Assembly (NCBI GenBank): GCA_032718475.1
Contig: JAUCBJ010006642.1
Coordinates: forward strand, 1-64,000
Direction of reading: 5' to 3'
From: Nemertoderma westbladi
Taxonomy: Eukaryota > Animalia > Xenacoelomorpha
DNA length: 64,000 nucleotides
Each line of letters begins with the position of its first letter. Positions within the stretch are counted from its first letter, which is position 1. The translations under genes were made by a program, and so were the position numbers. Under the pieces are notes generated by a model. The model saw nothing but the letters and a program-made list of their open reading frames with translations, ran no database searches and was not told where the DNA came from. Positions 1-31,030 of this stretch are shown one piece after another.

Positions 1-462
1 ACTTCCAATCAATGGCCAATGACGTCTCTTCACCCAAGTGACCAGATCAGATATATCGAGAATCACCTGTTTCCGAGTCCAGTTCCTGGAGACGCGAAGT
101 GGCAATGGAAGAAATTATTACGAGTGAAGTTAAGGGGCACTCATTAGAAGATCAAACTAAAGGTTGGCGAATAAGGGACGAATGAATAATTCTCATCATG
201 TGATATTGTGGTTAGACTAAATATTATTACTGCATCGGCCACATGGATAGGAGTTTGTGTCTCCGGGTGGCACGTATGGTACAGCAGCAGTGATTTGGCA
301 TTGCAATGCCAAAGAGTAGTATGAACAACCCTAGAAGGCTGTGGTGCCGAATGGTGATTCGAGATTTTAGATTAACTACATTTTCGTGTTCGGAAGTCAA
401 GACAACAAGACGGGATTCAGCCATCACGATAATATTTGAGTTTACATTGATGAATATGCCGT

Positions 463-3400
463 CTAGTTTGAATTAACTTTCTTCAATTTATGTTTCGAGT
501 GTTTCTGTTTCTTTAGATAATAAGTGCCGAAAAGTAGTGATTCAATTAGACGTTTTTGTAAATTATTAGATATAAAATCTTTAAGATCGCTTACAGCTCT
601 TTCTGTAAATTCAAAATAATGAAAATCAGAATTGTCGAGAAGAACTTGGAAGGAGTCGGTTACCTTTTCATCAATTAAAGTATATCCATGTATTTTCGAA
701 ATGACTTCCGGTAAAACATCCCATGCTTGATGGATGTACGGTTCTGTACCACCAATCATTCGCCAAATGTTTGATAACCCATTAAATGTTTTATAATGGC
801 AATTATCTGGTATTGATTTAGAGAATAATTCTACCATATCTTTTTGGATAAATCTCTGGTAAACATGATGTTGGTGAATGTTCCGGCACAGAAAGAGAAC
901 AAATTTTGTTTCTTCAAATGCGAAAAGTTCGGATTTTTCACAAGACATTGAATGTTGAAGGAAGCCATCTGGAAATGTTTTGCGCCAAGCTTCCAATCGT
1001 TGATCCAAAGGCGCTGATTGAGATAAATTTACAGCAGAAGTTGATAAGTCATCAACAAATTGGTTATATGGAGAATTAACCAGAAAAAAACGTTCGATTG
1101 CAGTCTTAGCATTTGGTCTCCATTTCATTGCTGTAACTATGGTGAACTTCGGACCTGGACTGAGAACTATTATGCGTATTACACCAAGCATGAAAAGTGT
1201 TTGCCGTTTTGTAATTTCAACAATATGCGCTGAATCTGTACAATGTTCACTACGAAAATAAGGTCTATATAATCCGTGTATCATGGCATCACCATAATCA
1301 TCTGCCTTTGATAAATCCGTATCTTTAAATAAAGTAATTACTTCTTTTGATACAGTTATCTCTTGACTATATTGTAATGTTCGTCCCGTTAATAATGACC
1401 GTGCAAGAACTGCTGTTTGCTTCTTTCTTTGTATTCTGTCTTGCCTTCTTGCTGCTTCCTGTTCATCAACACCTTCAAAAGTATCATGATATGTCGGTCG
1501 TCGCACATATAAGGAAATTCCCAAATACTGGATAATTTTCGGTAAATAAACTAATGGACCTCTGGTAGCGTGTAGTAAAAATCCAGAACTATGGAATACT
1601 CTCAATGAGGAATCTTTAAGACTGAATGGTGATACATTATCCAAATAGGTTCGCAAACCATCAACTAACCGCTTAGTCATCCAACGCAAACTTGCATGGT
1701 CGGGAAACTGCTCTACTGCTATTGAGAGTTCATTGCATATTGGCAAGAATGGATTATCTGTGGACTTGTTGTCAAGAAGTATTCCAGAAAGTGAAGGATG
1801 AGATTGTAATAACACCTCAATCAGTGTAGACTCTGAAGTAAATTTATCAACATGTTCTGAAAGCTTACATTTTACACAGTAGACCAACATTGGAGCCTTT
1901 CGTTGTTCACAATGCCATACAGCTATTGCCATATTTACGACACCAGGATCAATACCAATGGAACGGATTGTGTAGGAACTACTACCAGGACTAATTGCGT
2001 TAGTAGACCTAACATAAATTCCAAACCTTTCAATAATATTATCAATTCCAAACGTTACAATGAACTTATCACTATTAACTGATAAAACAGATTCCTCAGC
2101 ACGACGTTTAATGTCCATTTTAGAATTACTCAACTTCAAAAATGTCTCCAGAGAGAATGGCTCCGCAAAGAGGTTACGGCAGCTATCGGCACGAGTAAAT
2201 GCTACCTGAACAAGTTGGCTCAACAGTGATATGTTTGTTTGTACTAATTTATCTGCATTTAGATTAACATAAACTGGTTTCTCACGGTATTCTTTTCCTT
2301 GGCATTTGTGTACTGTGATTGCGTGAAGTGGCACAAAGGGGAACTGCGTTCGACTTATTCTTTCTGCAAATCGCCGTCTCTTTTTACCTGTGAGTCTTGC
2401 AGATATTGGGAATATTCGGACAAATGTAGGATTTAAAGGAAACTCGCAATCAGATATACCCTCCTCATTGAAATCTGGAATGTCAACAATGACATGGTCT
2501 GGTTGGGGATGTTCACCATTCAACACAGCAGCAGCATCACTTTCATTAAAAACGATGTGTATCACAGTTCCTTGGGTACCATTGGCTATGCGCCTTTGGA
2601 CACTGACATTATCAACAAATATAATTTTCAGGCCAACATATAATGGAATACAGTCCTCCAACATTACATCAAATTCTGATGGGCTCAATCTATTTAGATT
2701 GGTGAAAGTTGCATTATATATCGACTTGGAAATGAATAATGTTTGATCAAGTGAACAAATCTGATCAACTGATAATTTGGCATTATTAAGCATTCTCGTA
2801 ACATTGTCATACATTATACAAACTGGAAGCTCCCCCAGCGTCGCCATGCTTGGTGTGTTACCAAGTTCATTTATTGAATGAAAAACCGTCCTGTAGTCTA
2901 TTTCATCTTGCTCCCCATTCCTAATACGACTGGTTAGTTTAGCTAGCTCATCATCAGACCTGTAAACTTTCCTTAAGCAGATAACATTCGGACGCATATG
3001 AGAGGCATATAATTGATGACCATATAACGAATGAGCTTTACCTTGACGATTTCTAAGCCGAATTCTAGCACCAGGGGAAACAACTTCAGATTGCGAGGGT
3101 GCATTCCACAGTTGGCGTGATGAAACAGGTGGGAGTTGTCCCATATCTCCTACCAGTAGAAGCTTTTTGCCACCCCACAGAATGTCTGGATTACCACTGG
3201 CATGGCGTAATGATGAGTCCAACAACGCTAATGTTCCTGGTTGGCACATAGAAATTTCATCTACTATGACAAAATCAACACTTTGAACATATTTCACAAT
3301 GAGAGTTTGACGTGAAGTTACCTTGTCGGTATTCTGATCCCATTGAGTCTTGTTGTTATACAAGCCAAAAAAACCTTCAAGTGTTGCGCAATACAAATTT

Positions 3401-3555
3401 GCAGCAGCAGCTCCACTGATACCTAATAACAAGACCTTTTCACCAAGATGATAATAAATTCTCTTTATTACTTCGGTTTTACCAGAACCACCAGGTCCAT
3501 GTAAAAATATTGTCTGAGGTGTAGGCTTGTTATTGATAGTGTCATTAATCATCAA
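463..3555 (-). CDS. PIF1-family DNA helicase fused to a C-terminal RuvC-like (A22/Ydc2-type) nuclease domain (C-terminal part of RepHel)
   Basis: 1030-aa ORF. Walker A GPGGSGKT (~3475-3498), Walker B IVDEISM, WGGKKLLLVGDMGQLPPV, NGTQGTV, TQFPFVPLHAITVHKCQG. These are followed by IGIDPGVVNMA (D at 1948-1950), IAVEQ (E at 1711-1713), RKKQTAVLARSLL and KADDYGDAM (1288-1308). Confidence 0.88.
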   Translation of the reverse strand: MMINDTINNKPTPQTIFLHGPGGSGKTEVIKRIYYHLGEKVLLLGISGAAAANLYCATLEGFFGLYNNKTQWDQNTDKVTSRQTLIVKYVQSVDFVIVDEISMCQPGTLALLDSSLRHASGNPDILWGGKKLLLVGDMGQLPPVSSRQLWNAPSQSEVVSPGARIRLRNRQGKAHSLYGHQLYASHMRPNVICLRKVYRSDDELAKLTSRIRNGEQDEIDYRTVFHSINELGNTPSMATLGELPVCIMYDNVTRMLNNAKLSVDQICSLDQTLFISKSIYNATFTNLNRLSPSEFDVMLEDCIPLYVGLKIIFVDNVSVQRRIANGTQGTVIHIVFNESDAAAVLNGEHPQPDHVIVDIPDFNEEGISDCEFPLNPTFVRIFPISARLTGKKRRRFAERISRTQFPFVPLHAITVHKCQGKEYREKPVYVNLNADKLVQTNISLLSQLVQVAFTRADSCRNLFAEPFSLETFLKLSNSKMDIKRRAEESVLSVNSDKFIVTFGIDNIIERFGIYVRSTNAISPGSSSYTIRSIGIDPGVVNMAIAVWHCEQRKAPMLVYCVKCKLSEHVDKFTSESTLIEVLLQSHPSLSGILLDNKSTDNPFLPICNELSIAVEQFPDHASLRWMTKRLVDGLRTYLDNVSPFSLKDSSLRVFHSSGFLLHATRGPLVYLPKIIQYLGISLYVRRPTYHDTFEGVDEQEAARRQDRIQRKKQTAVLARSLLTGRTLQYSQEITVSKEVITLFKDTDLSKADDYGDAMIHGLYRPYFRSEHCTDSAHIVEITKRQTLFMLGVIRIIVLSPGPKFTIVTAMKWRPNAKTAIERFFLVNSPYNQFVDDLSTSAVNLSQSAPLDQRLEAWRKTFPDGFLQHSMSCEKSELFAFEETKFVLFLCRNIHQHHVYQRFIQKDMVELFSKSIPDNCHYKTFNGLSNIWRMIGGTEPYIHQAWDVLPEVISKIHGYTLIDEKVTDSFQVLLDNSDFHYFEFTERAVSDLKDFISNNLQKRLIESLLFGTYYLKKQKHSKHKLKKVNSN

Positions 3556-6500
3556 ATTGACAACAAGTTGTCCAATTTAGTATCATCCAATTTAGGCAAA
3601 TCATTGAAATTTATGGGAATCTTAGGTCCACCTTTAAATGTCTTTGATGATTTACAAAGCAATTTCCACTTTTGTTGAATTTGGGAATACAAGGGGGATT
3701 GCAAATTAATTGTTAAAAACGAATCTGCATTTCTGTCATCTAGTTCTTCTATGGCAGAACTCAAAATTCGATATGGATCCATATATGCATCAAAATCAAA
3801 TGCATCACTAAGTATACAATCAATAGAAAGTGATTCTACATTTAAATCAATCAAAGGTTCGTCTACAATATCAATAGTTTCTCCAGTTCCATCTGGCTCT
3901 TCTATGGGAATACAATTTAACTCGGATCTTATTTTGTACATTGCCTTTTTATGATCCATTTCACACCCATATGTATTTTGAAAGACACGAAATCGAAAAC
4001 AAGGGTCATCAAATGTTCCATTTATACTCCTGTGGTGAAGTAATTCCATCCATTTATTATGAAATGCCTTATAAATTAGAATTATATCTTTCTCACCATT
4101 GGATATTTGTTGTTGCAAATTCTCTGATATAAAGTAATCACTAACATTACCAGAAAATGGGATAAATGCGATACATTCTAATCTGACATTTTGTAGCAAA
4201 TTTTTAAAATGGTTATCAATGGTGTTCCACGTGAGACTATCGTCAAATAACAGGGATTCAGGACGTCCGGTGATTAAATGTGGAATGAAATGTGGGATTC
4301 TGGTATCTTTAATTCCTTTATACGTAAATTTAGATTGCTCAGTGTGAGGCTTGAAATCCACCAGCGACAGAAATTCGAAATACGTAATTTTATCAGAAGG
4401 GATGAGACCACCTGGCCAATCATCTGAACACCGTTTGACATATGCTGTCACTGACGATTTCGGAGGCAATATAAACAATTTTTTTACCTGAAAGTTTGTA
4501 ATTTCATTCGTATCAGCTTGTTCAACATTCACTATAGGTTCATCTTCTTCATTAGTTGCTACATCTTCAGATGGATTGTTCACTGATGGAGTTATTTGGC
4601 ATAAAATAGGTGCACCACTAGAACACTTTAATGGGACAATACGTGGCATGCATTTAATGACATCACTCAAGCCAAGGGCATGAAACATCAACTCCCGTCT
4701 CGACATATCTTTCGGATTGAAAACATGGGCAATAGTTAGTCTCTTAACCACACTTTGGATAGAAATATCTGGTTCGCTTTCTACAACCTCCATTAATTTT
4801 ACTACAGCATCATCAACACAAGAAAGCATACTTGTGCATTTGGAGACATATTTGAGGGTATAACGTAGCAATGCAAATGGACAACTTATAACAGTGAGAT
4901 CACTATTTGCACGCCAATACAGCTGTAGAATTCTATTAACATTATTAAGGCGAGTAAATGATTTGTGTCGACGTTTTGTCAACACATGACATTCTGTAAA
5001 TAACATTGACTCTGTTGTCTTTGCAAATCCAACTCTTGTAATATCTCTTCTAGGCTTAATACCGCCATGTCGACAACCATCCCCTTTTACATTTCCACCA
5101 CATGTCTCAGGATAGCAATTATGCATTTGCACTATTGCGGCAAGCAATGCACTCTCCTTGTTTTCTGAATTGCAGTGTTCTAAAGTATTAACTGTATCTC
5201 TCATCAGGGGATGATTTTGAGGAGTATACTTTGTGTCATCAGGAAGTTCATTCCAATCTTTCAGCAGTTTATATAAATCGATCAAATCTCCATTATCATC
5301 ACAAAAATCAGTTTGAATCAGGCTATCATACACTTCCGTCATGTATCTTTCAGCAAGATAACCAGTATTAACAATATGTATTGCCTCACTCCTAAATTCT
5401 TCAGTCATTCTTCCTTGCAACCAATATTTTCTTACAGTTCGCATTCTATGAATTAAATGAGCCAGTAGAATTAATTCGAATATGTGAGGTAACCTAGCAA
5501 GAAAGTGCCAATGCTGTACAGCACGTGTTGGACCCCATTCTACTCTTCCCCAATGCCAACTGTCTCTTGAATTGATGCTGCAAACTTTTCTGAAGAATGC
5601 ATTGGTCATAATCTCCATTTTTAAACGGAGGTATTGCTCTATAATTGCTGCGTGTTTATCAAGCAATTTATCCCAAACCTTTCGATTTATTTCAAACCAA
5701 GAGTGTTGAAATACAGCATCCAAGCCATATTCTGATAAAAATACCAGCCGCCTCACACCATAATCTGTTCGCAGATTATTATTGAATGTGATAAACACAT
5801 TTGGAAACCCTGAGTTGGTACAAACAGAATATAACTCTTGCCTCATATGTTTCCACCGTTGGGCGGAATGGGGATATCGTCTTAGATGGGCAATAAGCAT
5901 CGGTGCAACGGTTTCAGGATTGCCCATTTTAAATTTATCTAATAGTGTTTTGACATTAACTTCATCAAGTTCATTTTGTGTGTTGAGATAAAACTGTATA
6001 CTGTCCAAGGAATATGCTAAATGCATTTGGTCATAAGCAACAAAAGCATAAACAGGATCTTCAGCATATGGCCATCTTAGCTTACCATCATTGCCAAATA
6101 CTGCATATCGCAACTGGTGAGCTAGTGCTTGCTTGTGAACATTGATTCCAGCAAATTTCACATGTCCATCATCATCTTCCCTATACATAATAGATGTTAA
6201 TGAATGCTGGCCATCAGAATGTAAATCTGGAAATTGCTCCTCCAGTTTCCAATGAAAAGATGACAACTTTCCGTCCCACATATTCCTGAGATTTATCTTA
6301 ATCGGGGAACCTACCAACTCACTCTCCATAGCCTGTCGGACACTCGTCTGCAAATAACCACCTAAACTTTCATTAAGTCGATACATGCTATGCTGTGAAG
6401 CGTCTGACTGGGCATACATATCATCTTGGACTGCTCTAACTGCTGCTGGGGCAACATCAATAGTATTCACGATGTCATCTGTACACTGAACACTCAGTGT

Positions 6501-6959
6501 TTCTAATAAATCATGATTAATGGTGAATATATCTTTGTATCCTTCTCTATTGTTCAAGAGATGAATTGTCCAGGATTTGACAACATCTGACCGCACTGGA
6601 AGTTTCCGAAAACTCGAGCCATCCATCCTTTCAGACATTATTAAAACATCACATGAATGTTCGAGATGAGGTAAAACATGATTCAGTGTATTTCGAATTT
6701 TATGGCCAACAACTAAACAATGGCTTCCAAATACTTGTCTACGGTTATAATTAAACATTATACTTGTAAATGCCTGTTGTTTTGCTATAAGGCAACGTTC
6801 AGCTGGTGTGCAAAGTGGAAGCTTCCCGACATTGGCTTGAAATGTTGCTGCTGGTTCAGTTGTACTTAGAGCAATATCCCACACTAGAAGTCTTCTTACT
6901 GCGTGCTCTCCTAGAATTAGCTTGGCACCGTTTACATTCTTTAAATTTAGATGAGTCAT
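3552..6959 (-). CDS. Helitron Rep (HUH Y2 endonuclease) region, middle part of RepHel; true coding probably begins ~6855
   Basis: 1135-aa ORF. KLPLCTPAERCLIA (Helitron N-terminal conserved block), GFPNVFITFN (motif 1, ~5780-5810), WGRVEWGPTRAVQHWHFL (HUH motif 2, ~5500-5555), QMHNC..C, WRANSDL, RYTLKYVSK (motif 3, ~4838-4866). Confidence 0.85.
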   Translation of the reverse strand: MTHLNLKNVNGAKLILGEHAVRRLLVWDIALSTTEPAATFQANVGKLPLCTPAERCLIAKQQAFTSIMFNYNRRQVFGSHCLVVGHKIRNTLNHVLPHLEHSCDVLIMSERMDGSSFRKLPVRSDVVKSWTIHLLNNREGYKDIFTINHDLLETLSVQCTDDIVNTIDVAPAAVRAVQDDMYAQSDASQHSMYRLNESLGGYLQTSVRQAMESELVGSPIKINLRNMWDGKLSSFHWKLEEQFPDLHSDGQHSLTSIMYREDDDGHVKFAGINVHKQALAHQLRYAVFGNDGKLRWPYAEDPVYAFVAYDQMHLAYSLDSIQFYLNTQNELDEVNVKTLLDKFKMGNPETVAPMLIAHLRRYPHSAQRWKHMRQELYSVCTNSGFPNVFITFNNNLRTDYGVRRLVFLSEYGLDAVFQHSWFEINRKVWDKLLDKHAAIIEQYLRLKMEIMTNAFFRKVCSINSRDSWHWGRVEWGPTRAVQHWHFLARLPHIFELILLAHLIHRMRTVRKYWLQGRMTEEFRSEAIHIVNTGYLAERYMTEVYDSLIQTDFCDDNGDLIDLYKLLKDWNELPDDTKYTPQNHPLMRDTVNTLEHCNSENKESALLAAIVQMHNCYPETCGGNVKGDGCRHGGIKPRRDITRVGFAKTTESMLFTECHVLTKRRHKSFTRLNNVNRILQLYWRANSDLTVISCPFALLRYTLKYVSKCTSMLSCVDDAVVKLMEVVESEPDISIQSVVKRLTIAHVFNPKDMSRRELMFHALGLSDVIKCMPRIVPLKCSSGAPILCQITPSVNNPSEDVATNEEDEPIVNVEQADTNEITNFQVKKLFILPPKSSVTAYVKRCSDDWPGGLIPSDKITYFEFLSLVDFKPHTEQSKFTYKGIKDTRIPHFIPHLITGRPESLLFDDSLTWNTIDNHFKNLLQNVRLECIAFIPFSGNVSDYFISENLQQQISNGEKDIILIYKAFHNKWMELLHHRSINGTFDDPCFRFRVFQNTYGCEMDHKKAMYKIRSELNCIPIEEPDGTGETIDIVDEPLIDLNVESLSIDCILSDAFDFDAYMDPYRILSSAIEELDDRNADSFLTINLQSPLYSQIQQKWKLLCKSSKTFKGGPKIPINFNDLPKLDDTKLDNLLSI

Positions 6960-8581
6960 AATTTAACTCTAGATATATTTCACAACAAGTTGTACAATGT
7001 TTTAATTTCCAACCAGTAGACCAGTCCTCAACAGCCTTTCTCATAACGTATTGTACATATCGTGAATCTTGGGACCTTATTTTATCAACTTCCTTTTGCT
7101 CAGCATCATTCAAAAATTTAGTATGATCTCTGGGCCGCTGATCCCAAGGCCATAATGGAATTTGCATTTGGTTTGATTGTTGCTGTGCCTCAGGAAGAAT
7201 AACATCCTCAAAAACGCCACATTCATTTTCATTCGGATCCACATTCTGAAGTTGAATATTTATTATTTCATCGTCTCGAGGTATTCCCCAATTGTTTAGA
7301 GAATTCTTTAATTTATTAACTTCACCCTCCCGTTTGCAGAAAAATTGGCACTTTTCTGAAAATTTCATTCTATCAGTCCAGGACGCAGGAGAAGGAATTA
7401 AGGAGGAACCAGCTATATTTTTCTTCTTCACTTTATTGGATACACTACAATCAGATATAGAAGCGGACGCACTGGAGATGCCATCCTTTTGACATTGCAC
7501 CAATGGAGATGCGTTCGGTTGTCTGAAACGTACACGTGCATAGTAAGCTTTAATTCGTTCAGCTGATCTCACCACAGGATCTAACCGCTTCTTACGCATA
7601 GATTCCCGGTTGGCTAAACGAACAGCAGGATCTAATCGTTTCGTACGTTTTGATAATCGTTCAGCCGATCTAACTTCAGGATCTAACCGCTTTGTACGTT
7701 TTGATAATCGTTCAGCCGATCTAACTTCAGGATCTAACCGTTTTGTACGTTTTGATAATCGTTCAGCCGATCTAACTTCAGGATCTAACCGTTTTGTACG
7801 TTTTGATAATCGTTCAGCCGATCTAACTTCAGGATCTAACCGTTTTGTATGTTTTGATAATCGTTCAGCCGATCTAACTTCAGGATCTAACCGTTTCGTA
7901 TGTTTTGATAATCGTTCAGCCAATCTAACTTCAGGATCCAACCGTTGCGTACGTTTTGATAATCGTTCAGAAGATCTAACTTCAGGATCTAACCGTTTCT
8001 TCCGCATAGATTCCCGGTTGGCTAAACGAACAGCAGGATCTAATCGTTTCGTACGTTTTGATAATCGTTCAACCGATCTAACTTCAGGATCTAACCGCTT
8101 TGTACGTTTTGATAATCGTTCAGCCGATCTAACTTCAGGATCTAACCGTTTTGTATGTTTTGATAATCGTTCAGCCGATCTAACTTCAGGATCTAACCGT
8201 TGCGTACGTTTTGATAATCGTTCAGAAGATCTAACTTCAGGATCTAACCGTTTCTTCCGCATAGATTCCCGGTTGGCTAAACGAACAGCAGGATCTAATC
8301 GTTTCGTACGTTTTGATAATCGTTCAGCCGATCTAACTTCAGGATCTAACCGCTTTGTACGTTTTGATAATCGTTCAGCCGATCTAACTTCAGGATCTAA
8401 CCGTTTCGTACTTTTTGATAAACGCTCAGTAGATTTCACAGCAGGATCGAATCGCCTTTTTTGCATTTTCTCCCGAGCTTCAATACGTAAGGAATGAATT
8501 TTGCATAACTTGGAGCGCACTTGATGGGTTTTAAGTCCACGTCCCGAATTAAACGGCCGTTGGCAAGTATCACACATAAAT
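6856..8581 (-). CDS. Helitron N-terminal region: C2HC zinc finger, basic 17-aa repeat array, Cys cluster
   Basis: 573-aa ORF. CDTCQRPFNSGRGLKTHQVRSKLC, ~18 repeats of RLDPEVRSAERLSKRTK, then CTTCCE...CKRC, typical of the cluster preceding Helitron Rep. A splice-acceptor-like ttttgttttag lies immediately upstream (AG at 8583-8582). Confidence 0.75.
7555..8460 (-). repeat. Coding tandem repeat, 51-bp unit, ~18 copies
   Basis: Unit ttcaggatctaaccgttttgtacgttttgataatcgttcagccgatctaac; a variant unit (RLDPAVRLANRESMRKK) recurs three times. Confidence 0.95.
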
Positions 8582-10055
8582 CTAAAACAAAATAAATATA
8601 AATAATAATAGTATATGAATTATGAAGCAGTGATAGGTGACTGCAATTGAACTGTTACACCACGCCCTGGAATATAATGTCTTAATTAAATTCGATATAG
8701 ATAGGACTTACTTCTTACTTATAAAATAATTAATCGCGCATTATTTAGGCCTATTATATTTTAATACAATTTACTACACCCTTAAGATTTATTATAATTT
8801 ATATATTTTATGCGATTTGTGCTTAATATAGTATGTATTATATGAACCTTGATGGTTTGAATAAAATAAAATAATAATAATAATTCAGTAGTTTGGTCCC
8901 CCCACCCAAAATAAAAATATTTCTACAAATCGTAATGAGATTGCATGAAATTTAAAACAGAGATAGTTACATCTCCGAGCTCCGACCACTTACTGGGTGA
9001 GCCAGAATTTTTATTTTTGCTTTCATTCTTTAGCTACAAGTGTTTAAAAAAGTGTCTCCGTCGATATTGAACCACTTACACCGCAGTTATTCTTCAACTT
9101 CATAGTGAATAATGTGTAATAAAATCTGATGAATTTCATTGCAAAATAGCTATATTCGTTTTATAAAGTCGCATGCATTTGCTTCCGTTGCAGGCATTTT
9201 GTCTTTTTAAGAAATACAAAATGTAATGCCTATATAATATTACTAGTACGAGGGTATTCATACATAAATAACATGATGTAGAATATGGTGTATTTTATTA
9301 AATATTTTAATTAATTGTCTGCAGCGGAAGCAAATGCATGAAATTTACGAATGCCCATCTCAGTTATTTCTCAACGAAATTCAAATCTTATTACGTATTT
9401 AGAATCACTGCACGGTACCAACGAATCGCTATAAGATTGAAGAATAACTGCAGTCGACCTGTGGAATATCGACGGAAACTTAAAGGCAACAGCGTAACAG
9501 AGAGAGGAGCCTTCCGGTTCCGGTCGCCTCCACTGTTTGGTGTTTCACACGTTCACCGGTAACTTTTACTCTGAAAGTCAAGATCCTAACATAGATAAGG
9601 TAATCTCTATCGGTTAATTCGCCCTCGAGCGGTAGACAGGAGAACTTCAGATGGCTCTTGGTATTACGCTGGAACGAGTTAGGCAGAGACCTTTCTAACA
9701 AGCTATAGTAAGCGAGATTTCATAGAGATGGGTTCGAGCCAAGGTGTACCTTGGTTCGAGCGTATAGCTGATTACAGACAGATAGTTAATTCATATAGAC
9801 TAGAAAGCCTTCTAGTGTACAAGCTTGTTCAACATTTCAATTTATTAATGAACAAAGGCAGATCTACTTGGCATGCTACTACAACATACGAATTATGCTG
9901 TAAGTTATCTGCCAAAATATCAGCTCCAAAGGATTAAACAATAAATTGGGAGAAGGTTTTTCTTTTCAAAAATTTCGCCTCTAAACGGCCAACTGGTGAA
10001 TTTATGACCATTTTAAAATCCATTTTACCCATTTTAAAATCATATTTTTGCATGG

Positions 10056-10262
10056 GTCAGAATTGTCCCGGTCCCAATTATCCGGTTTCTTAATGGAACT
10101 GGACAATTGGGACCTAGGGCAATTGGGCCCCGGACAATTGGGACCCGGACAATTAGGACCTGGACAATTCGGACCCATTGTTTAAAATAATATTTTTTGT
10201 ACGAGTCCGAATTGTCCGGGTCAGAATTGTCCAGGTCCCAATTGTCCGGGGCCGAATTGTCC
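10056..10262. repeat. Short inverted arrays of ~15-20-bp units (ggacaattgggaccc / gtccgaattgtcc), MITE-like
   Basis: ggacaatt.ggacc units at 10100-10176 face gtccgaattgtcc units at 10205-10262. Confidence 0.65.
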
Positions 10263-10375
10263 TATATCCAAAATCCAACTGCAGAGTGGTCTGCCTCCTT
10301 CCAAATACGAAGCTTATGGTGTGGTGTAGAGCTCTTCCAAGTATTTAGCTGGAAAGGATTAAAAATAATAAAATC

Positions 10376-11370
10376 ATTCCCAACTTCCACCACACTCCCA
10401 ACTTCCGTCCCACTCCCAACTCCCGTCCCATTCCCAACTTCCACCACACTCCCAACTCCCGTCCCATTCCCAACTTCCACCACACTCCCAACTCCCGTCC
10501 CATTCCCAACTTCCACCACACTCCCAACTTCTGTCCCAATCCCAACTCCCGTCCCACTCCCAACTCCCGTCACATTCCCAACTTCCACCACACTCCCAAC
10601 TCCCGTCCCATTCCCAACTTCCACCACACTCCCAACTCCCGTCCCATTCCCAACTTCCACTACACTCCCAACTCCCGTCCCATTCCCAACTTCCACCACA
10701 CTCCCAACTCCCGTCCCATTCCAAACTTCCACCACACTCCCAACTTCCGTCCCACTCCCAACTTCCGTCCCACTCCCAACTCCCATCCCATTCCCAACTT
10801 CCACCACACTCCCAACTCCCGCCCCATTCCCAACTTCCACCACACCCCCAACTCCCGCCCCATTCCCAACTTCCACCACACTCCCAACTCCCGTCCCATT
10901 CCCAACTTCCACCACACTCCCAACTCCCGTCCCATTCCCAACTCCCGTCCCATCCCCAACTTCCGTCCCACTCCCAACTCCCGTCCCACTCCCAACTCCC
11001 GTCCCATTCCCAACTTCCACCACACTCCCAACTCCCGTCCCATTCCCAACTTCCACCACACTCCCAACTCCCGTCCCATTCCTAACTTCCGTCCCACTCC
11101 CAACTCCTGTCCCACTCCCAACTCCCGTCGCATTCCCAACTTCCACCATACTCCCAACTCCCGTCCCATTCCCAACTTCCGTCCCACTCCCAACTCCCTC
11201 CCACTCCCAACTCCCGTCCCATTCCCAACTCCCGTCCCACTCCCAACTCCCGTCCCATTCCCAACTTCCGTCCCACTCCCAACTCCCGTCCCATTCCCAA
11301 CTTCCACCACAATCCTAACTCCCGTCCCATTCCCAACTTCCGTCCCACTCCCAACTCCCGTCCCCAACTC
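10376..11370. repeat. C-rich minisatellite, 18-bp units forming a 36-bp higher-order repeat
   Basis: Alternating cccaacttccaccacact / cccaactcccgtcccatt units over ~1 kb; open frames on both strands. Confidence 0.95.
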
Positions 11371-12059
11371 CACAGTTTTACTTATGTTTGAGGCCTGACC
11401 AACTAACCCTAACCAAAATAACAAACCAAATATCCCATAAAAGCTAAGACAGCAAGGTGTGGCCCACAATAGACTTCGTAGTGGCAGCTATGGCAGACAG
11501 TCAAGTTACAGTATAATACTACCAGTACGGTAGATGAAACTGTTAGTACCTGAAAGTGCATTGAACCAACTTCACAGAAACATGAAGAAAGTAAAGTAAC
11601 CAACCTTAGTGGTGAATCTTGTACAGCTTCCGCATCCATAGTAATAGTAGCTGGACTCTGGACAGTGGAGTACAGAAGATGGACTTGTTTCTTCAGAATC
11701 TTGTATGACTTAAAGGTACCGGTACATCTTGAAATAAATATCCTTTGCTTTTATGTAATTCGCACATATCTAAATGTAAAAAATAAAGGAATATATAAAC
11801 TCAGAGACTTTCACAATATACATGTCGGATGTCGCCGGTGGTACTTAAACTTGATTGATGGATACAGATAGAACTAAGCAACCTACTGCCCTTCACCCTA
11901 CAGCCCAATGAAACATAAACTGATAATAAACATTTCAGAAGCACTGCAATTATATGGTACGGTAACCGATGAAGCTTCCTAAAAATTATATTGTATGCCA
12001 TTTGATTTGATACCGGTAATAATAGTAAGTATAAAGGCATTTAGATTGAATGTTACATT

Positions 12060-12368
12060 TAAAAAAAGAAACCGGAGGCGGAGGCCGGCCCCATTTTTAT
12101 ACAGGTAGCTGCTAGGTCATATAGGTAGAGGTGGGCGCTACTCATGTATCCCAGTATCCCTAGTTTTGTTCTCCTCAGTACCGTAATTCAACTGGTACTC
12201 ATTTTCTCGACGCCATTCAGCCATTGGATGAAAGGCTGAGTGGACCCTAGCACTGGCGGGGTTCGAACCTCGAACCTACATCCTACAACCAGCAATAGAT
12301 AGTGAGCCTGAAGCCTGGCACGCACAGTGGCACATGGCGCTCAACAACTGAGCTACCCCGCGCCCGCC
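12060..12368 (-). mobile_element. tRNA-derived SINE with conserved central domain
   Basis: Minus strand: A box TAGCTCAGTTG, B box GGTTCGAACCC, then ACTCAGCCTTTCATCC...GTCGAGAAAATGAGTACCAG, which resembles a core found in widespread animal SINEs. Confidence 0.75.
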
Positions 12369-13723
12369 TTCAATAAAAAATCTACCAATAAATATTAGGG
12401 CCTACATTTACTTAGGCCTAATGATTTATTTTTTAATTTAATCTAATTAATCACCTTAGGCCTATTTATTTATTTTAAATTTTGGTTACCGGTCCGGTAC
12501 CTACCGGTAATCGAGTGTAATTATAAATAAATAAATTTAATGTACGGCGGAATAAATACATTGAAATATATTTATTACAGCAGTATTATACAGTAGGCTA
12601 CATTGTAGGCCTAGTTAAGAAAAAGAATATTGTCAAAGATATTCGCATTGTATGCATAAGTAGGATAGGCCAGGCCTGTATCACAGTTAAAGTAAATAAA
12701 AAAAATAACTATGAAACAATATAATAATTAACAGTCCAATTCAACAAAAATAAGTGTACCAGTAACAACAATAAATCACAGTATAACTCAATATGCTTCC
12801 AACTGCCCAATACATACCTCAACTTTCAAGCCAGCCCATCAAGAGGGGCATATTCCAGTAGCAGTCTTCAAATCCACATGTAGAAGAGAGTAGGCCAAGA
12901 ACTATCTTAGAACAGTTACAATCAGATAACTATACCGCTACCGCGGTAGGAGTTATAGGATAACGCTCAACAGGATAAGCTAATAAGTTCAGAAGTTATA
13001 AGATAATAAATAATTATAAATGAGACAATAAAATATCACACAAATTACCAATCCAACTGCCCTATATATATACAGACACCGGCTCCTCTACCTCAAGCTA
13101 GGCCGTCCACCCTCCCCAATAAGGCACTGTGAATGGCTAATAATCTTACCACAGTATTAATGAGAGGCCGGTTTAACTAATGCAATTAATTGGCAGATTG
13201 GGTTTTAAACATAGAAATATCTCAACTGAACAACTAACACTAAAGACCACAACAACTGGACATGCTGGGAACACTACACTACACACCTTGATCACATGCT
13301 TATATAATAGCTTGTACGGACAGGCCGGTTTTCATTGGGGGGTCCATAGGGTGGAGACTGGTAGATTGGATTGGGATGTCAGATTGGAATGTGGTGTGGA
13401 GTGTTAGGAATGTATATGAATCAGCAGTCCGGTAGAGGTTTACATATTTAAAAGAACTGCCGAAATATAAGTTATATGAGTATTATTTGTTATGATTTCT
13501 ACCATTATATTCTTCCACGCAAAGTTCCTAGTCCTATAGGTCCAATCAAAACATTCTGTATATTGCCAATGGTTCAACGTAATCAAAGAGACGACGCTAG
13601 ACACGCACGCAGCCAATCCCAGTGAAAAATGCACGCAAATAAGTAGTCATAAGTGATAATTCTAGAAAGGCTTTTCTGCGAATGTAGGCTATTGTGTAAT
13701 TCATTTCAGTACCGGTCTGCCTA

Positions 13724-13772
13724 ACTGTCTGCACCAGGTGTCTGCACCAGGTGTCTGCACCAGGTGTCTGCT
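13724..13772. repeat. 13-bp tandem repeat (tgtctgcaccagg), ~3.5 copies
   Basis: Direct reading of the sequence. Confidence 0.9.
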
Positions 13773-13859
13773 TAACATTTACACCCCAATTCCGCTTGGT
13801 TTATATCTTGATTATCAATAAAATAGTAACGTGAAATATTTATGGAGCGTATATTTGAG

Positions 13860-14952
13860 AATGTTGAAATAATGCGTTTAGTAGTGTGACCAGCGTCTTG
13901 AAATTCCGCTTACCTCTAGCGGCAGACTGGAGAAATGCAGATCGACCACCTTCCTCAGAAAGACGCAGCATGTGCTCTAGTACATATGCCAATATTCACT
14001 TTAAATAAATTAATATCAAGGAATTGGGGACAGTTATACATTTCGCCCTCTAGCGGCAGACTGGAGGACTCCAGACCGTTTACTGCCCACCAAAGACTCA
14101 GGCCGACTTCTACTACATATCTGCTACGTTTCAGCTTGAACGGATCATAAATAACGAGATGGGAGAAAGATTTCACTTTCAAACATTTCGCCCTCTAGCG
14201 GCAGACTGAAGAACTGCACACGGATTAGCCTTCAATTCAATTCAATTCCTTCTTTCAAAGTCACAGCTAATGGTCTAGTACATATCTGCCAAATTTCAGC
14301 ATAAATGGATTAAAAGCAAAGAAATGGGAGGACATTTAACGTTTAGACATGTGGCCCTCTAGCAGGAGACTATTGCTCTGATGGTGTCTGAAAGTCTCTC
14401 AAACGTCTCAACTTTTGATCATATTGATGCCTACAAATTTTCAACTTGGCAGCTTTAAATTCGACAAAGTTATAAGCATGTCAATATCATAACGACGACA
14501 ACGATTTCACTTTCAGACATTTGGCCCTCTAGCGGCAGACTGGAGAACTGCAGATGGATTCGCCTCCTTTGAAAGTCACAGCTAATGGTCTAATACATAT
14601 CTGCCAAGTTTCAGCTTAAACGGATTAAAAGCAAAGAAATGGGAGGGCATTTAATGTTTAGACATGTGGCCCTCTAGCGGGAGACCATTGCACTGATGGT
14701 GTCTGAAAGTCTCTCAAAAATCTCAACTTTTGCTCATATTGATACCTACAAATTTTCAACTTGGCAGCTTTAAATCCGACAAAGTTATTAGCATGTCAAA
14801 ATCGTAACGACGACGACAACGACGACGACGACAACGACGACGACGACAACGACGACGACGACGACGACGACAACTATTTGCATAAATTGACCCACCCCCT
14901 AACAGTGTCAATTCGCTAAGGCTCCGCCAACTTCGTGGCTCGCCCCACATTT
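13860..14952 (-). mobile_element. Non-autonomous Helentron-like element (DINE-1/HINE architecture)
   Basis: End TGTGGGGCGAGCCACGAAGT shared with copies at 38331 and 52275, followed by a (GTC/GTT)n microsatellite (14806-14872) and ~140-170-bp internal tandem units, each containing CCTCTAGCRG. Confidence 0.65.
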
Positions 14953-15435
14953 CCCCATATGGGAAGGCACTGGAATGAATTTTGTGTTTAATGGCATCAC
15001 TACTGTAACCTACAACTTTAATTTTATGTTGTTATTCCTTAAAGTCCCGAAAATGTAGAAATTACGACATCCCACATGTTAGTTGCCAATTTGAAAGTTC
15101 ATTGTATGTCTTCACATCGGTTGTTAGTGATATTTGGTGCCCTTGATCATTCATAGTCAACCAAAATATGAATTACTAGCCAATATAATTGATATGCAAC
15201 AGACCATAATATCAGTAGTAATAATCACAATATTAAAAAAAATTATGGATGAATAGAAGTGTTGTAAGCCATGTAAATAAATGCTTAACATTCATATAAT
15301 ATAATAAATCATAATTACAATATAAAATAATACGAATGAATTCTAAATTCGCGAAGAATGAAGTGCAGTTAATTGATAAATGATTTGATTGATTGAATGA
15401 TTGATGAATTGTTAATTGAGAAATTGAAAAAATGA

Positions 15436-15775
15436 AGAAGCGCGTCACCAGGAGTTGAACCAGCGCAATCTCTACGTGTTGGCTTATCAGGCCTTATCAT
15501 CAGAAGCGCTAATAGGTTCAGCCTCTTCTTACACTTGCTCTCCCATTTAGTCCACTTCTACTGAAGTGGCCAGTCATAATTCTTAACGAACATACTTTAT
15601 GCCATTACGTCCTCTGTTATACATATGATATGCAACTTGAATCCTGCCTGTTCAATAGAAGTGGACTAGATGATCGAGTAAGTGTCAGGGGCAAGTGGCT
15701 GGTTAGCGGTACTGAAGAGGCCTGATTGGCCAAACCGTACGAATAGCGCTGGTTCAACCCCCGGTGACGTGCTTA
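15436..15775. repeat. Diverged inverted repeat (~125-bp arms) made of two outward-facing tRNA-like heads
   Basis: 15438-15562 is the diverged reverse complement of 15656-15774; each arm carries a B-box-like GGTTCAAC(C/T)CC. Confidence 0.65.
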
Positions 15776-18639
15776 ACCTCATTTTTCCATTTCTGAGCAA
15801 AATCATATAATATTATAAATTTTATAGTTATAGGAACTAGGTTGAGATTTCAGCCCTACTAGCAGGATATTTGCAACAGGTAAAAGTGGAACCAATAATT
15901 ATGTCCAGAGAAGAACACTATTTACCTCAACCAACACACCCAATGGCATTGGTTGCTAGTTCTCCACTACTGGAGATACCCTAAATTAATTAAGCAAATG
16001 AGTGAGGGTGGATATAGTTGTGTCTTTTAGTTTGATAGTTTAATTCATTAAATACAAGCCATACACTTTCAACCAAACAATTTACAACTTTGGCGATTAA
16101 TTCAAGTTCTTATGCTTGTGAATAATGTCAAGGGAAGGTTTTTGACTGGCCACATATCTGTTCAAACCAGGAGGTTGCTATGGTATCACCTCAGGTGATG
16201 ACAGTTGAAACAGGACAAATAGAATGCAACTTTAGAACGCTCATATCTCAGCTATTTTTCAATTACATCATTCGAATCCTTGTATGGCCAGCTTTCTAAC
16301 ATTACCAACAAATCACATATTTGAAGAATAACTGCTGTGTAAATGGTGAAATATTGCCGAGATTTGAAAGGGAAAATAAGAATTCTGGCTAACACAGTAA
16401 GGATGAGTGAGTTGAAACTTTCACATTTAGGAATTCGATCACATTGTGGTTCAAAACCATTATTAAAGTATGTTGTAGAAAAATCCTAATTTAATTTCGT
16501 ATCAGTATAATTTTATGTTGAAAATGTTCCTGGGTTACCTTTTATGCAACATAATACTATTTTTTAAAGGTTGGTTAGAGCACATAATTGCAGTTTGAAT
16601 ATTGATGTTAAATTGTAATAAAACGTCTGGTGGGTTCATAAAAAATTGATTGGCAGTTTTAATATTGAAGCCAATAAAATATTGCTCATTAAAATATTAT
16701 ATTATTAGACAACCGCAATATCCATGATTTAGAAGCCGCTAACATTAACGTAGCATTCCGTTTCACTGCCCTTAACTCTAAGCCGTTCAATCCGCAATAT
16801 TCCAATATAATATGATATAATGGCCATACAATAGTGGTGCCTCCCTGGCTGGACTAACAATGAGTGGTGTTAAATGGAGTGGTATATCATGTGAAAGAGA
16901 TTCCGGTTTCGGATAAGGATTTAGCTAACGGGAACACAGAAAACATTGGAATGCGTTTCATTTCCTAACTAGACCATCTGGGACCGGTTGCTTAGGATAT
17001 TGGTACAATAATTTACTACAGTTGGAACTGAAATGATATAGAGGCAATTAAAGAGGATGTTGAATTGCTACTTTTTGGAATGTATTGTGCTTGCTATATA
17101 CAATGAAAAACTATATTTGTAAGTTTAAAAATATAAAAAAGAAAAAAAAATCATAATATTTAATGAAAGAAGCTGAAAAAACTGAAAAAATCTTAAAAAA
17201 TGATAAAGGTTATATACTGGGCATCCACCGAGGAGGATGCCACAGCCAGTACTGGTTGTTCGATAACTGTTCGGAGTATTAATTTTTCACTGGTGGATAA
17301 ACAAGGAGATTTCTGTGAAAGATCATATGCCAATTAATAGGTAGGTCGTGGCTGTAAAAGCTTCTAGTCTGCAGTGAAGATTTTCCCACACATATCTTCT
17401 TACCCTGGGGCCAGTAAATTTTTCATAATATCTTAATTAAATTTTCTATGGTTTAAGATGGTGCTTATAATAGAATGATTATCATTGCCACCACATAGTA
17501 TATATCAAGTCAACATCATCAGCCAAAAACATCATTATGCTCCTCGCAACATGATCTGGTAATTATAACAAATTGACGCTGTAAGAAATTAATTAACTTT
17601 ACAATCTACTAAACATTTATTTATTCATTGGGATGAGATGAACAAGGCGACCTGGAGGCGACCTGGACAGCTGCACATGCCAATAAAGTACAATGACTTT
17701 AATGAACAACGGAATTGAGTCTACAATGTAAGTTCGCTACATATCGTTCAATGATGTTGAATTTATATCCTTTATTTAGACAAATGTCGAGGCATTTATC
17801 TAGATAAAAGAATATGCGTGCTTTACGAAAGTAAATTAAATTCCGGTCAATTAGTCTTCCCTTTTCTAATGTAATCTTGCCATTCAAGAATATTTCCTCT
17901 GAAAACGTCTCTTTGTAATTTGTAAAAGGGGAGTTTTTTAGTCAATCAAGCAATACTCGGTATCTAATCACCATATAAATTCGTGATATGTGTTGCCAGA
18001 CAGAAAATTCCGCAAAGATTAAGTTCTTAAAAAACAAGCCCATGGTTTAGTTTCTAATGGAAATGTATTGTGACACATAGTGAAGGGCCATTGAGGCATC
18101 AAAACTCCCATTTTAATGCATTCCAATAATTGGAAGCAATTGTAATCTCATAATCCTTACATATCATTTTGGAGTGTCTGGAATTTTTATGAATCTTAAT
18201 ATGAATAAATCACTTTCCTTTAGCTGGTTTATATAAATACTTATACGGGAATCATTGACTATAGTTCAGCAATAGTACAAATACACATTCATTTAATATG
18301 TACACATTCATATTCATGAATGTATGTTTGCAAAAAGAGTGTGCATTTGCACAATGCACATGCACAATTACCCCCAATAATAAATGGGCCGGTCTTCTAA
18401 CTTCAGGACCATGCGAATTAAAATAGAAAATTAGCCATATCCATAACACATTTTGCAGACAGAATAAGAGATCACACGCTACACGCAGTGGCCTTATCAA
18501 CAAATTAAATTGGTAAATTGGTCTTAATTGGTCAGCATACGAGCATAGGATGTCTTTTGTCCCTTTATGGAATCCCTCATGCACCGATTCTAAGCTAATT
18601 CACTTTTTTCTTTATATAAATCGTATATATACGTATCTG

Positions 18640-20795
18640 GCAAAATAACGGTCGATTCATCAATAATAGTCACTGCTGGTGACCTGAATGCTCAAATTGG
18701 CACAAAAGAATTCAAGGGTTACACCTATATCACCAGTTCGAACAGAAATGGGTGCTTACTCTTAGAACTAATGGAAGAATGTGAATTGATACCAACAAAC
18801 AACACATTCGAAAAGAGTAAGGGGAAGCTACCTTTCCATACCCTAATGGAACCAAAGCACAACTGGATTACATCTTTATAAACAAAAAGTGGAGAAACAG
18901 CATGATAAACTGCGAGGCATACAGCTCGTTCAACCTAATTGGTTCGGACCACATAATTGTGACTGCAGTGACCAGACTCAGTCTGAGAGCCAGCAAACCC
19001 AGGACAAGCAAGCGAATCAAATATGACTGGGAGAAACTCAGAACTGACAATGTCGTAAAGGTTGCTTACACAGTAGAAATTCAAAACCGTTTTGAATTAC
19101 TTCAGTCAATGGGTGAAGACCAGTCTACGGATTCAATATACCAGAATATAATAAAATACCCACAAGGAATCAGCCAAGAGGCATATTTCCCAGAAACCCA
19201 AACGAAAACATTATGTGCCAGGGCAAGACTCTGAGGTTACTTGTAAGAGAGAAGATCTTAAGATAGCATACAAAGTAAGAACCGAACAACCAACAACCGA
19301 AAACATTAACAAGGTTGAGAAAGCTAAGGACGATCTTAAATTGGCCTACAACATCAGCCAAGAGAAGTACGTACATTACAGATTGAAGAAATTACAACTG
19401 CTCACATACAGCAACAATCAAGCCTTACCTGGCAAACTGTAAATGAGGTATCTGATCGGAAAAGTTGTGCTAAGGGGCGCCTCAAAGCTGATAGTCCTGA
19501 AGAACGAGTTGGGAAATGGAAAGATCACTTAAGCAACTTGCTTGGGCAGCCACCAGACATCGAGGTCAGCCCTACAAGGAAAATATATGACAAGACGCTA
19601 CTTATAGAAACCTGGGGACTTCACACCCGCCGAACTCCAAAGAAGCATTAATAGCATGTCCAATCATAAGAGCCAAAAGATCATAAGAGCCAAAACGGAT
19701 TTCGACCAAATAGATCAACAATAGCTCAGCTACTACTAGCTACGGAGGCTGATTGAGTGAATTAAGTCAAAGAATCTCCCCACTGACCACTGTCCTGACT
19801 TTTATGGACTTCAAGAGACCATTCGACTCAATCTATAGAGGTAAAATGATGGAAATCTTCAGAGCTTATGGAATACCAAAGATAATTGTGGCTGGGATTG
19901 GATTATTATATTGTAACACATAAGCTCAGGTAAACTCACCAGATGGAGAAACTGAGTTCTTCTCAATCATGGCTGGCGTACTGCAAGGTGACATATTGAC
20001 ACCATTACTGTTTGTAATTGTACTGGATTACGCAATGAGGACGGCCATAAAGGGTGAAGATCTGGGATTCACACTACAAGAACGCAGAAGTAGTAGATAT
20101 CCGGCAACTACAGTCACAGACACCGACTTCGCGGATGACACTGCCCTGCTCTCTAATACGCAAGCAGATGCACAGTTGAATAAAGTGGAGAAGGCTGCTA
20201 AGGGGGTTGGATTGCATATAAATGCTACCAAGACCGAATTCATGACTTTTAATGTTAATGGAAACTTGACAACAATTGATAATAAATCAACTAAGGAAGG
20301 TTGACGACTTCCAGTACCTTGGGTCATGGATAGAGAGTAGCAAAAAAGACATAGAAGTTAGGAAAGCAAAGGCATGGGTAGCTCTATCAAAAATGGATAC
20401 CATCTGGAAATCAGATCTCTCCAGGCACCTGAAGACTAAGTACTTTCGAGCCACATTGGAAAGTGTACTTTTATACTGGGGTGAGACCTGGACATGACGA
20501 AATCACTTGAACACCGAATTGATTGATGGTTGCTACACAAGACTACTAAGGGCAGACCTAAACATCAGCCGGAGACAACATATGACAAACGCCGAGCTTT
20601 ATGGTACAATACCACCTGTATCAACTACCCTCCGTGAACGCAGATTAAGATTCAGTGGCTACTGCTGGTGTAGTGAAGACGAGGTCATACCAGATCTACT
20701 TTTCTGGCAGCCAACTCATGGAAAGCGTAGTCGTGGACGACCTGCTATAACATATATAGATCAACTTGAAAGGGATACTGAACTTCCTACTGATA
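18640..20795 (+). mobile_element. Degraded APE-RT LINE (RTE-like clade)
   Basis: GDLNAQIG, LDYIF, SDH (APE); GVLQGDILTPLLF, FADD, FQYLGS, ESVLLY.ETW, RLRFSG (RT and C-terminus). Many stops and frameshifts. Confidence 0.9.
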
Positions 20796-31000: not shown

Positions 31001-31030
31001 TTATGTTCCAAGACAAATATTTACAGTATG
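28030..31030 (-). mobile_element. Degraded APE-RT LINE (RTEX/Crack-like)
   Basis: SWNINGL, GDFNA, SQIDLCL (APE); NYRGIS, DFSKAYD, GVRQG, FLDD (RT); C-terminal HRLRIELGKW...CSC...EEHVLF Zn motif. Frameshifted. Confidence 0.88.

What the first reader, a model, noticed from the sequence alone, without database searches (positions are those of the whole stretch)
463..8581. Helitron-like transposon whose Rep-helicase is fused to a RuvC-fold Holliday-junction-resolvase-like nuclease
Seen in the sequence: HUH Rep motifs and all PIF1 helicase motifs. In frame with the helicase is a ~230-aa domain (1265-1975) with IRSIGIDPGVVNMA, LSIAVEQ, RKKQTAVLARSLL and KADDYGDAMIHG (D536, E615, D752/D753, D756 of the 1030-aa ORF). 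Established knowledge: GIDxGxxN / vvIEx / RK / KxDDxxD is the catalytic signature of poxvirus/NCLDV A22 and fungal mitochondrial Ydc2/Cce1 resolvases. The C-terminal add-on I know from Helentrons is an APE endonuclease, and I am not aware of a described RepHel-resolvase fusion. Inference: this is a distinct rolling-circle transposon lineage carrying its own branch-resolving nuclease, which could process cruciform termini, strand-transfer intermediates or concatemers.
Basis: partly seen in the sequence, partly recalled or inferred. Interest (0 to 1): 0.92.

Follow-up and report, generated by a model that had tools for sequence, protein, structure and literature searches.

The report
Rolling-circle transposon with twin resolvase domains
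This stretch encodes a Helitron-type rolling-circle transposase whose helicase is joined in frame to two domains predicted to fold like viral Holliday-junction resolvases, one keeping and one lacking the catalytic residues, so it likely carries its own tool for nicking branched DNA, an add-on for which I found no published description.

Summary
Observation confirmed and extended. The minus strand carries a HUH/two-tyrosine Rep with a weak DUF6570 match (HLE2-type), a PIF1 helicase, and in frame a domain whose AlphaFold model matches TEFM, canarypox resolvase and Ydc2 (Z 10.1-11.5). Its acidic residues are spaced as in fowlpox resolvase and invariant in the homologs covering them. Both frameshifts in the window are absent in 3 of 3 runs covering them, implying one ~2,716-aa protein. 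One run joins a 5' exon across a GT-AG intron. Five homologs (35-40% identical) exist; one also carries the helicase's last helix, so the fusion is probably not unique to this locus. Candidate Helitron2-type ends bound ~9.5 kb, but no sign of mobility was seen; domestication stays open. Best reading: an active-plus-dead resolvase module that nicks branched transposition intermediates, sitting where Helentrons carry APE. Nuclease activity is untested. Not found in seven literature searches or HELIANO's domain table; Repbase could not be searched.

The parts
11605..11771 (-). Upstream exon (at least this long) with an ATG at 11639, in frame with the main ORF after splicing; GT donor at 11604. 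Lies outside the candidate 5' terminus.
   Evidence: Run X4 contig joins 11605 to 8581 skipping 3023 nt with GT..AG ends on the minus strand; canonical donor and in-frame reading
9801..9821 (-). Candidate 5' terminus: 13-nt inverted repeat (9806-9818, 12/13 match to the 3' repeat) that folds with its downstream bases into a 7-bp hairpin, as in Helitron2
   Evidence: 1 of 300 shuffles; criteria chosen after seeing the site; definition from PMC3627910
8582..11604 (-). GT-AG intron holding several high-copy repeats and a 36-bp tandem array; pyrimidine-rich acceptor at 8582
6879..8581 (-). N-terminal part of the transposase: C2H2-like zinc finger, ~16 copies of a basic 17-aa repeat (51-nt unit, 7626-8429), then two CxxC pairs
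   Evidence: (zf-C2H2_4 E 0.18, weak)
6525..6821 (-). DUF6570-like region (HLE2 marker in HELIANO)
   Evidence: Pfam E 9e-5, 23.4 bits, just under the 24.3 cut-off; Atlas top clusters carry DUF6570
4840..6011 (-). Rep endonuclease: motif I (FITF, 5795), HUH (H-W-H, 5513), two-tyrosine motif (4862)
   Evidence: Helitron_like_N E 2.1e-8
2050..3576 (-). PIF1-family SF1 helicase
   Evidence: Pfam PIF1 E 9.5e-16; 19 PIF1-type PDB sequences incl. Helraiser 7lcc, E 2.1e-8
1230..1977 (-). RuvC-fold domain 1 (A22/Ydc2-like), catalytic residues D536, E615, D753, D756 plus N541, K750 intact
501..1194 (-). RuvC-fold domain 2, predicted catalytically dead (S, R/K-N and K-R-x-x-E at the equivalent places)
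3568..3578 (.). Frame break in the window between Rep and helicase; runs X1-X3 lack 5 bases here
   Evidence: table 4
6877..6881 (.). Frame break in the window before DUF6570; runs X1-X3 have 2 more bases here
   Evidence: table 4
328..340 (-). Candidate 3' subterminal inverted repeat, 14 nt before the hairpin
294..313 (-). Perfect 20-nt palindrome, candidate 3' hairpin, 150 nt after the stop codon
   Evidence: 6 of 2000 mononucleotide shuffles of 1-462 gave a 10-bp arm

Best explanation
This is a Helitron-type Rep-PIF1 transposase gene, likely of the HLE2 (Helitron2/Helentron) group, whose helicase is fused in frame to two domains predicted to have the poxvirus-A22/Ydc2 resolvase fold, the first keeping and the second lacking the catalytic acids, and the module likely nicks branched or looped DNA formed during rolling-circle transposition. 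Shown: domain order, motifs, residue conservation, absence of both frame breaks in three runs. Predicted: both folds. From established Helitron biology (PMC6213432, PMC5876387): Rep nicks the 5' end, the helicase peels off one strand, a circle forms, and strand transfer leaves a single-strand loop thought to be resolved by host replication. Inferred: domain 1 cuts one strand at such a loop or branch (or pre-nicks the target, the role often guessed for the Helentron APE that occupies the same position), while domain 2 would act as a built-in DNA-binding partner in place of the second subunit of a resolvase dimer, so that one transposase makes one nick, not two. Whether this copy still moves is not shown.
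For: Fold of domain 1: TEFM Z 11.5 (rmsd 3.3, 180 aligned), canarypox resolvase Z 10.7 (2.7, 130), Ydc2 Z 10.1; top viral match medusavirus Holliday junction resolvase, E 2e-6; Atlas top clusters carry Pox_A22 in 14-56% of members (scores 0.88-0.90, a lead). Fowlpox resolvase uses D7, N12, E60, K129, D132, D135 (PMC6962361); D536/N541 and K750/D753/D756 have the same spacing, and sit at the ends of strands 1 and 4 and on the last helix of the model. Domain 2 alone: pLDDT 76.7, pTM 0.77; Ydc2 Z 10.8 (4.0, 187), TEFM 10.3, canarypox 8.9; 24 viral matches at E<=0.001, among them several named resolvases. Its substitutions are conserved: S-P-G in 5 of 5, R/K-N in 5 of 5, K-R-x-x-E in 4 of 4, so it is maintained, not decaying. 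Poxvirus resolvases cut many branched forms, bulges and loops with little sequence preference. P0003 begins with a match to the helicase's terminal helix and linker (score 56, 0 of 5000 shuffles). HLE2 signs: DUF6570 (marker), candidate Helitron2 ends.
Against: No activity was measured. The models rest on a 6-sequence alignment (mean pLDDT 68.2, pTM 0.48 for the two-domain model), so the packing of the two domains is not known. The top structural match, TEFM, is (recalled) a non-cutting RuvC-fold protein, so fold alone does not prove cutting. The two domains show no significant profile similarity (hhalign E 0.5), so duplication is not proven. No homolog was recovered with a full helicase or Rep attached; fusion elsewhere rests on ~40 residues of one protein. 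No phylogeny was built. No second copy, empty site or non-autonomous family was seen. Run X1 changes an Arg conserved in 4 of 4 sequences (position 1436) to Ile. Known Helitrons transpose without any such nuclease.
Confidence: 0.5

Rival explanations
1. Domesticated gene: the element is an immobile relic whose whole Rep-helicase-nuclease frame is now expressed from a host exon and works for the host as a DNA-branch-processing enzyme. Compatible with the same biochemistry.
For: One contig joins an exon lying outside the candidate 5' end, in frame, across a GT-AG intron filled with repeats. Long unbranched contigs (7,087 nt in X1, 5,105 nt in X3) with few other letters suggest one locus; the frame is open in three runs; no second copy in the window.
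Against: Candidate termini are still recognisable; the ORF has its own ATG just inside the acceptor; the window's own haplotype carries two frame breaks; 13 listed coding substitutions are 5 silent, 8 replacement, 0 stop, no clear sign of strong selection; Helitrons capture upstream sequence readily. X4 is labelled DNA (guessed), so the joint is not proven to be mRNA.
Confidence: 0.25
2. Classical resolvase: two transposase molecules dimerise through domain 1 and cut four-way junctions symmetrically, resolving cruciform ends or concatemers of the circular intermediate; domain 2 is only an accessory.
For: All characterised RuvC, A22 and Ydc2 enzymes are homodimers that cut twice (PMC6962361 passages; PMC3592405 abstract); domain 1 keeps the full catalytic set; Helitron2-type ends carry hairpins.
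Against: A conserved dead second domain is unexplained by this model; the word concatemer does not occur in the Helraiser intermediates paper; Helraiser is described as a compact monomer (title of a reference seen).
Confidence: 0.17
3. Non-cutting clamp or passenger: the module binds branched DNA or aids helicase processivity, like TEFM, or is captured cargo with no role in transposition.
For: TEFM is the top or second structural match of both domains; Helitrons capture many domains.
Against: All four catalytic acids of domain 1 are invariant across sequences 35-40% identical.
Confidence: 0.06
4. Fanzor-like RNA-guided nuclease, since Fanzor1 (RuvC fold) is known in Helitron2 elements.
For: Fanzor1 occurs in Helitron2-type elements (PMC3627910; PMC13565253); Cas12-family chains appear at Z 7-8.
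Against: The Fanzor/TnpB zinc-finger-RD motif is absent in 4 of 4 sequences; resolvases rank above Cas12; the closing K-x-D-D-x-x-D helix has the poxvirus resolvase spacing.
Confidence: 0.02

Closest known systems
HLE2 group: Helentron (RepHel with C-terminal AP endonuclease)
   Same: Rep (HUH, two Tyr) + PIF1 in one protein, DUF6570-like region, a captured nuclease directly after the helicase.
   Different: The nuclease is RuvC/RNase H-fold, not APE (no Exo_endo_phos match), and comes as an active-plus-dead pair; the Rep is very divergent (no relative found).
HLE2 group: Helitron2 (Bao and Jurka 2013, PMC3627910)
   Same: Candidate asymmetric inverted repeats with a 5' hairpin and a 3' hairpin; no APE.
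   Different: The 3' repeat is 14 nt from the hairpin, not adjacent; ends unconfirmed; Helitron2-linked RuvC-fold proteins described there are Fanzors, whose motif is absent here.
Poxvirus A22/fowlpox and NCLDV Holliday-junction resolvases; yeast Ydc2/Cce1; TEFM
   Same: Predicted fold (Z 8.9-11.5) and, for domain 1, catalytic residue spacing.
   Different: Those are free-standing homodimers of about 150-300 aa; here two copies are chained behind a helicase, one dead; no Pfam Pox_A22 or Ydc2 match by sequence.
HLE2 family HelenSM92 with a captured GIY-YIG domain (PMC11417382)
   Same: Precedent for an HLE2 carrying a nuclease other than APE.
   Different: Unrelated nuclease fold.

Membership tests
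Helitron-like elements | HUH Rep with two catalytic tyrosines and a PIF1 helicase in one transposase | tested here: met
   Pfam, motifs; split by a frame break in the window, in frame in X1-X3
Helitron-like elements | Mobility: several copies, empty sites or non-autonomous derivatives | tested here: inconclusive
   None seen in the listed rows or in the window; no whole genome held; 63 joints not shown
HLE2 (Helitron2/Helentron) | DUF6570 upstream of Rep | tested here: met
   E 9e-5 passes HELIANO's 1e-3 limit but is under Pfam's cut-off (23.4 vs 24.3 bits); Atlas clusters at 0.95 carry it
HLE2 (Helitron2/Helentron) | Rep/helicase phylogeny inside the HLE2 clade | not tested
   No reference HLE2 proteins were obtained (searches found no relatives)
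HLE2 (Helitron2/Helentron) | Short asymmetric terminal inverted repeats, hairpins, T|T insertion | tested here: inconclusive
   Candidate at 9806-9818 / 328-340 / 294-313; 27 of 300 shuffles gave the repeat alone, 1 of 300 with the 5' hairpin; criteria post hoc; no empty site to confirm
Helentron | AP endonuclease after the helicase | tested here: not met
   No Exo_endo_phos among 16 Pfam families; RuvC fold instead
HLE1 (canonical Helitron) | CTRR shortly after the 3' hairpin | tested here: not met
   Nearest downstream CTRR is at 215, about 80 nt past the hairpin at 294-313; holds only if that hairpin is the terminal one
Pox_A22/Ydc2 resolvases | RuvC-type RNase H fold | tested here: met
   Predicted models
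Pox_A22/Ydc2 resolvases | D-E-D-D catalytic set | tested here: met
   Domain 1 only; domain 2 lacks three of four
Pox_A22/Ydc2 resolvases | Match to the Pfam family model | tested here: not met
   0 families for the domain and for 3 of 3 homologs; PHROG RuvC-like only E 0.016-0.44
Pox_A22/Ydc2 resolvases | Homodimer that cleaves four-way junctions | not testable with these tools
   Needs biochemistry; a domain-1 homodimer was not modelled
Fanzor/TnpB | D-X(125,275)-[TS][TS]-XX-C4 zinc finger-X(5,50)-RD | tested here: not met
   0 of 4 sequences (motif)

The most novel reading that the evidence does not exclude
An undescribed, deeply divergent lineage of HLE2 rolling-circle transposons replaced the Helentron AP endonuclease with a giant-virus-type resolvase, doubled into a single-chain active/dead pseudo-dimer that turns a symmetric junction cutter into a one-strand nickase finishing integration without host help; at this locus the whole machine may have been put under a host exon.
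Probability: 0.35. Interest if true: 0.88.

Novelty: new variant of a known kind. Interest (0 to 1): 0.76.

Why it matters
The role of nucleases captured by Helitrons is stated to be undetermined (PMC8788227), and how the looped integration intermediate is finished is only assumed (PMC6213432). An unrelated, structure-selective nuclease fold at the position of the Helentron APE suggests what that position is for and makes it testable with one point mutant. A chained active-plus-dead RuvC pair would be an unusual way to break the symmetry of a resolvase. The domain is invisible to Pfam, so Pfam-based surveys such as HELIANO would miss the whole group. It also hints at gene flow between giant viruses and Helitrons, although direction and donor are not shown.

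Tried and rejected
No whole genome is held, so copy number and empty sites could not be counted. Word-index protein searches found nothing for the nuclease (570-1815 aa) or the Rep (1989-5000 aa), and only P0003 with alignment A1. No related loci in viral contigs, JGI metagenome contigs, prokaryote genomes or named phages. No PDB sequence match for the nuclease (best E about 1, chance) or the Rep. NCBIfam gave nothing relevant. Domain 1 versus domain 2: no significant similarity by BLASTP or hhalign (E 0.5, though the strand-1 and strand-4 motifs fall in register). Complex prediction of domain 1 with domain 2: no verdict (score 0.00, alignment not used, partner fold uncertain); no evidence either way. 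No RNA holder listed. Run X4 has no cover between 866 and about 7600 and run X3 has very uneven depth (290-420 over the ORF, 12-15 at 9079-10082); contig depth and holes prove nothing, so neither is used. A planned look at reads over 8300-28000 could not be made, so further upstream exons are unmapped. Foldseek on the two-domain model against PDB put Ppx/NTPDase chains first by E-value with poor geometry (TMq <= 0.19); rejected in favour of the domain-wise matches. Substitution counts used 13 coding rows; two rows beside the indels were dropped and 37 rows of that table were not shown.
Full report
Observation. The minus strand of 463-8619 holds three overlapping open frames: 6856-8619 (zinc finger, about 16 basic 17-aa repeats), 3552-6962 (DUF6570 E 9e-5, Helitron_like_N E 2.1e-8) and 463-3576 (PIF1 E 9.5e-16). 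Rep motif I, the H-W-H motif and the two-tyrosine motif are present. The host is a eukaryote (spliceosomal-type intron, non-LTR retrotransposon in the window; nearest Rep clusters 94-100% Eukaryota); I did not determine the species.

One protein. Contigs of runs X1, X2 and X3 (two samples, two studies; one may be the window's source) all lack 5 bases at 3572 and have 2 more at 6879. Both places lie in the overlaps of the frames, and the arithmetic gives 2,717 codons including the stop. This assumes the window's repeat number, since no listed contig spans the repeat array, and 15 indel rows were not shown. Of 13 listed coding substitutions 5 are silent, 8 replacement, none a stop. A contig of run X4 joins 11605 to 8581, skipping 3,023 nt with GT..AG ends; donor and acceptor are canonical and an ATG at 11639 reads in frame. 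X4 is labelled DNA (guessed); that it is a spliced transcript is my inference.

Domain 1. No Pfam, NCBIfam or PDB sequence match; the PHROG RuvC-like family is only at E 0.44, and 0.016 for a homolog. The ESM Atlas gives Nucleocytoviricota clusters with Pox_A22/Ydc2 (0.88-0.90). An AlphaFold model from six sequences (pLDDT 68.2) matches TEFM (Z 11.5), canarypox resolvase (10.7) and Ydc2 (10.1) among 48,161 chains, and medusavirus resolvase first among viral models (E 2e-6). Fowlpox resolvase uses D7, E60, D132, D135 with N12 and K129 nearby; the spacing here is identical and the residues are invariant in all sequences covering them (3 of 3, or 4 of 4).

The model repeats the same order of strands and helices in residues 268-499. 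Folded alone (pLDDT 76.7, pTM 0.77) it matches Ydc2 (Z 10.8), TEFM (10.3) and canarypox resolvase (8.9) and viral resolvases. Where domain 1 has D, E and D-D-x-x-D it has S, R/K and K-R-x-x-E, conserved in 5 of 5, 5 of 5 and 4 of 4 sequences; this equivalence is read from secondary structure and motif register, not from a superposition. Sequence and profile comparison of the two domains is not significant, so an old duplication is inferred, not shown.

Relatives. HMMER over 1.84 billion representatives found 5 proteins (E 1.8e-84 to 1e-7; 35-40% identity), all unnamed singletons on 1.1-2.0-kb ENA or Logan contigs. Three (P0002, P0003, P0004) span both domains, so the pair is conserved. P0003 starts with about 40 residues that match the helicase's last helix and linker (0 of 5000 shuffles). 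That is the only evidence for the fusion outside this species. Their DNA context could not be fetched, and other collections held no relatives.

Ends and mobility. A perfect 20-nt palindrome lies at 294-313 (6 of 2000 shuffles). A 13-mer 14 nt before it has an inverted 12/13 copy at 9806-9818 that folds with its downstream bases into a 7-bp hairpin, the Helitron2 pattern; 27 of 300 shuffles give the repeat, 1 of 300 the repeat plus hairpin, with criteria set after seeing it. If real, the element is about 9.5 kb and the spliced exon is host sequence. No second copy lies in the window; long unbranched contigs run from element into flank, and no empty-site joint is among the listed rows. Contig depth is not a copy number. 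Mobility is therefore not shown.

Mechanism. In Helitron transposition, strand transfer is thought to leave a single-strand loop that host replication resolves, with double-stranded circles as donors. Helentrons carry APE after the helicase; its function is undetermined. Poxvirus resolvases cut many branched forms, bulges and loops, and RuvC enzymes work as dimers by nick and counter-nick. I infer that domain 1 cuts and domain 2 stands in for the partner subunit, giving one nick at a branch or loop: 0.5. Rivals: domesticated host enzyme 0.25, classical dimeric resolvase 0.17, non-cutting clamp or cargo 0.06, Fanzor-like 0.02 (motif absent in 4 of 4). That the element is Helitron-derived and bears a resolvase-fold domain with an intact active site I put at about 0.9.

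Comparison and novelty. HELIANO lists 20 captured domains; its main text has no 'RuvC' or 'resolvase' and its supplement no Pox_A22, Ydc2 or RuvC name or accession; it names DUF6570 as an HLE2 marker and one GIY-YIG-bearing HLE2 family. Being Pfam-based, it would miss this domain. Seven library searches (listings only, top 15-25 rows each) showed no paper on such a fusion; the RuvC-fold proteins reported in Helitrons are Fanzors. Repbase, Dfam and subscription journals were not searchable, so novelty is provisional. What I saw: PMC11417382 passages, section 22 whole and term searches of its supplement; passages of PMC13085455, PMC8788227, PMC6962361, PMC3627910, PMC13565253, PMC5876387, PMC6213432; abstract of PMC3592405. 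That TEFM does not cut DNA is recalled. The scan's index held no look-alike and one unrelated phage helicase-RuvC fusion.

Verdict. Real, better than described, and apparently undescribed: a new variant of a known kind.

Noticed in passing
window 46565-50644 (-): Intact 1359-aa ORF with Ulp1 protease (E 8.3e-14), PHD finger and reverse transcriptase (E 1.7e-17); looks like a CRE/NeSL-type non-LTR retrotransposon (label recalled).
   Followed up: partly
window 30294-31070 (-): 258-aa APE-like endonuclease fragment (Exo_endo_phos_2 E 7.2e-9), probably a LINE remnant.
   Followed up: partly
window 8850-9110: Very high-copy interspersed repeat inside the intron (summed depth in the tens of thousands); others at about 9200-9420 and 9620-9740.
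   Followed up: no
window 10054-10272 and 10378-11364: A 15-bp-unit inverted repeat (arms 10107-10174 and 10205-10272) followed by a 36-bp tandem array of 27 copies with strong GC skew.
   Followed up: no
window 9814-9831: A second, near-perfect 16-nt palindrome abuts the candidate 5' inverted repeat; 7 of its bases also match the sequence next to the 3' repeat (seen output).
   Followed up: no
window 21339-22327, 55990-59760, 57943-58703: Several long inverted-repeat pairs (72-139 nt arms), probably MITE-like elements.
   Followed up: no
window 45528-45846: 40-bp tandem array, 8 copies, 95% alike.
   Followed up: no
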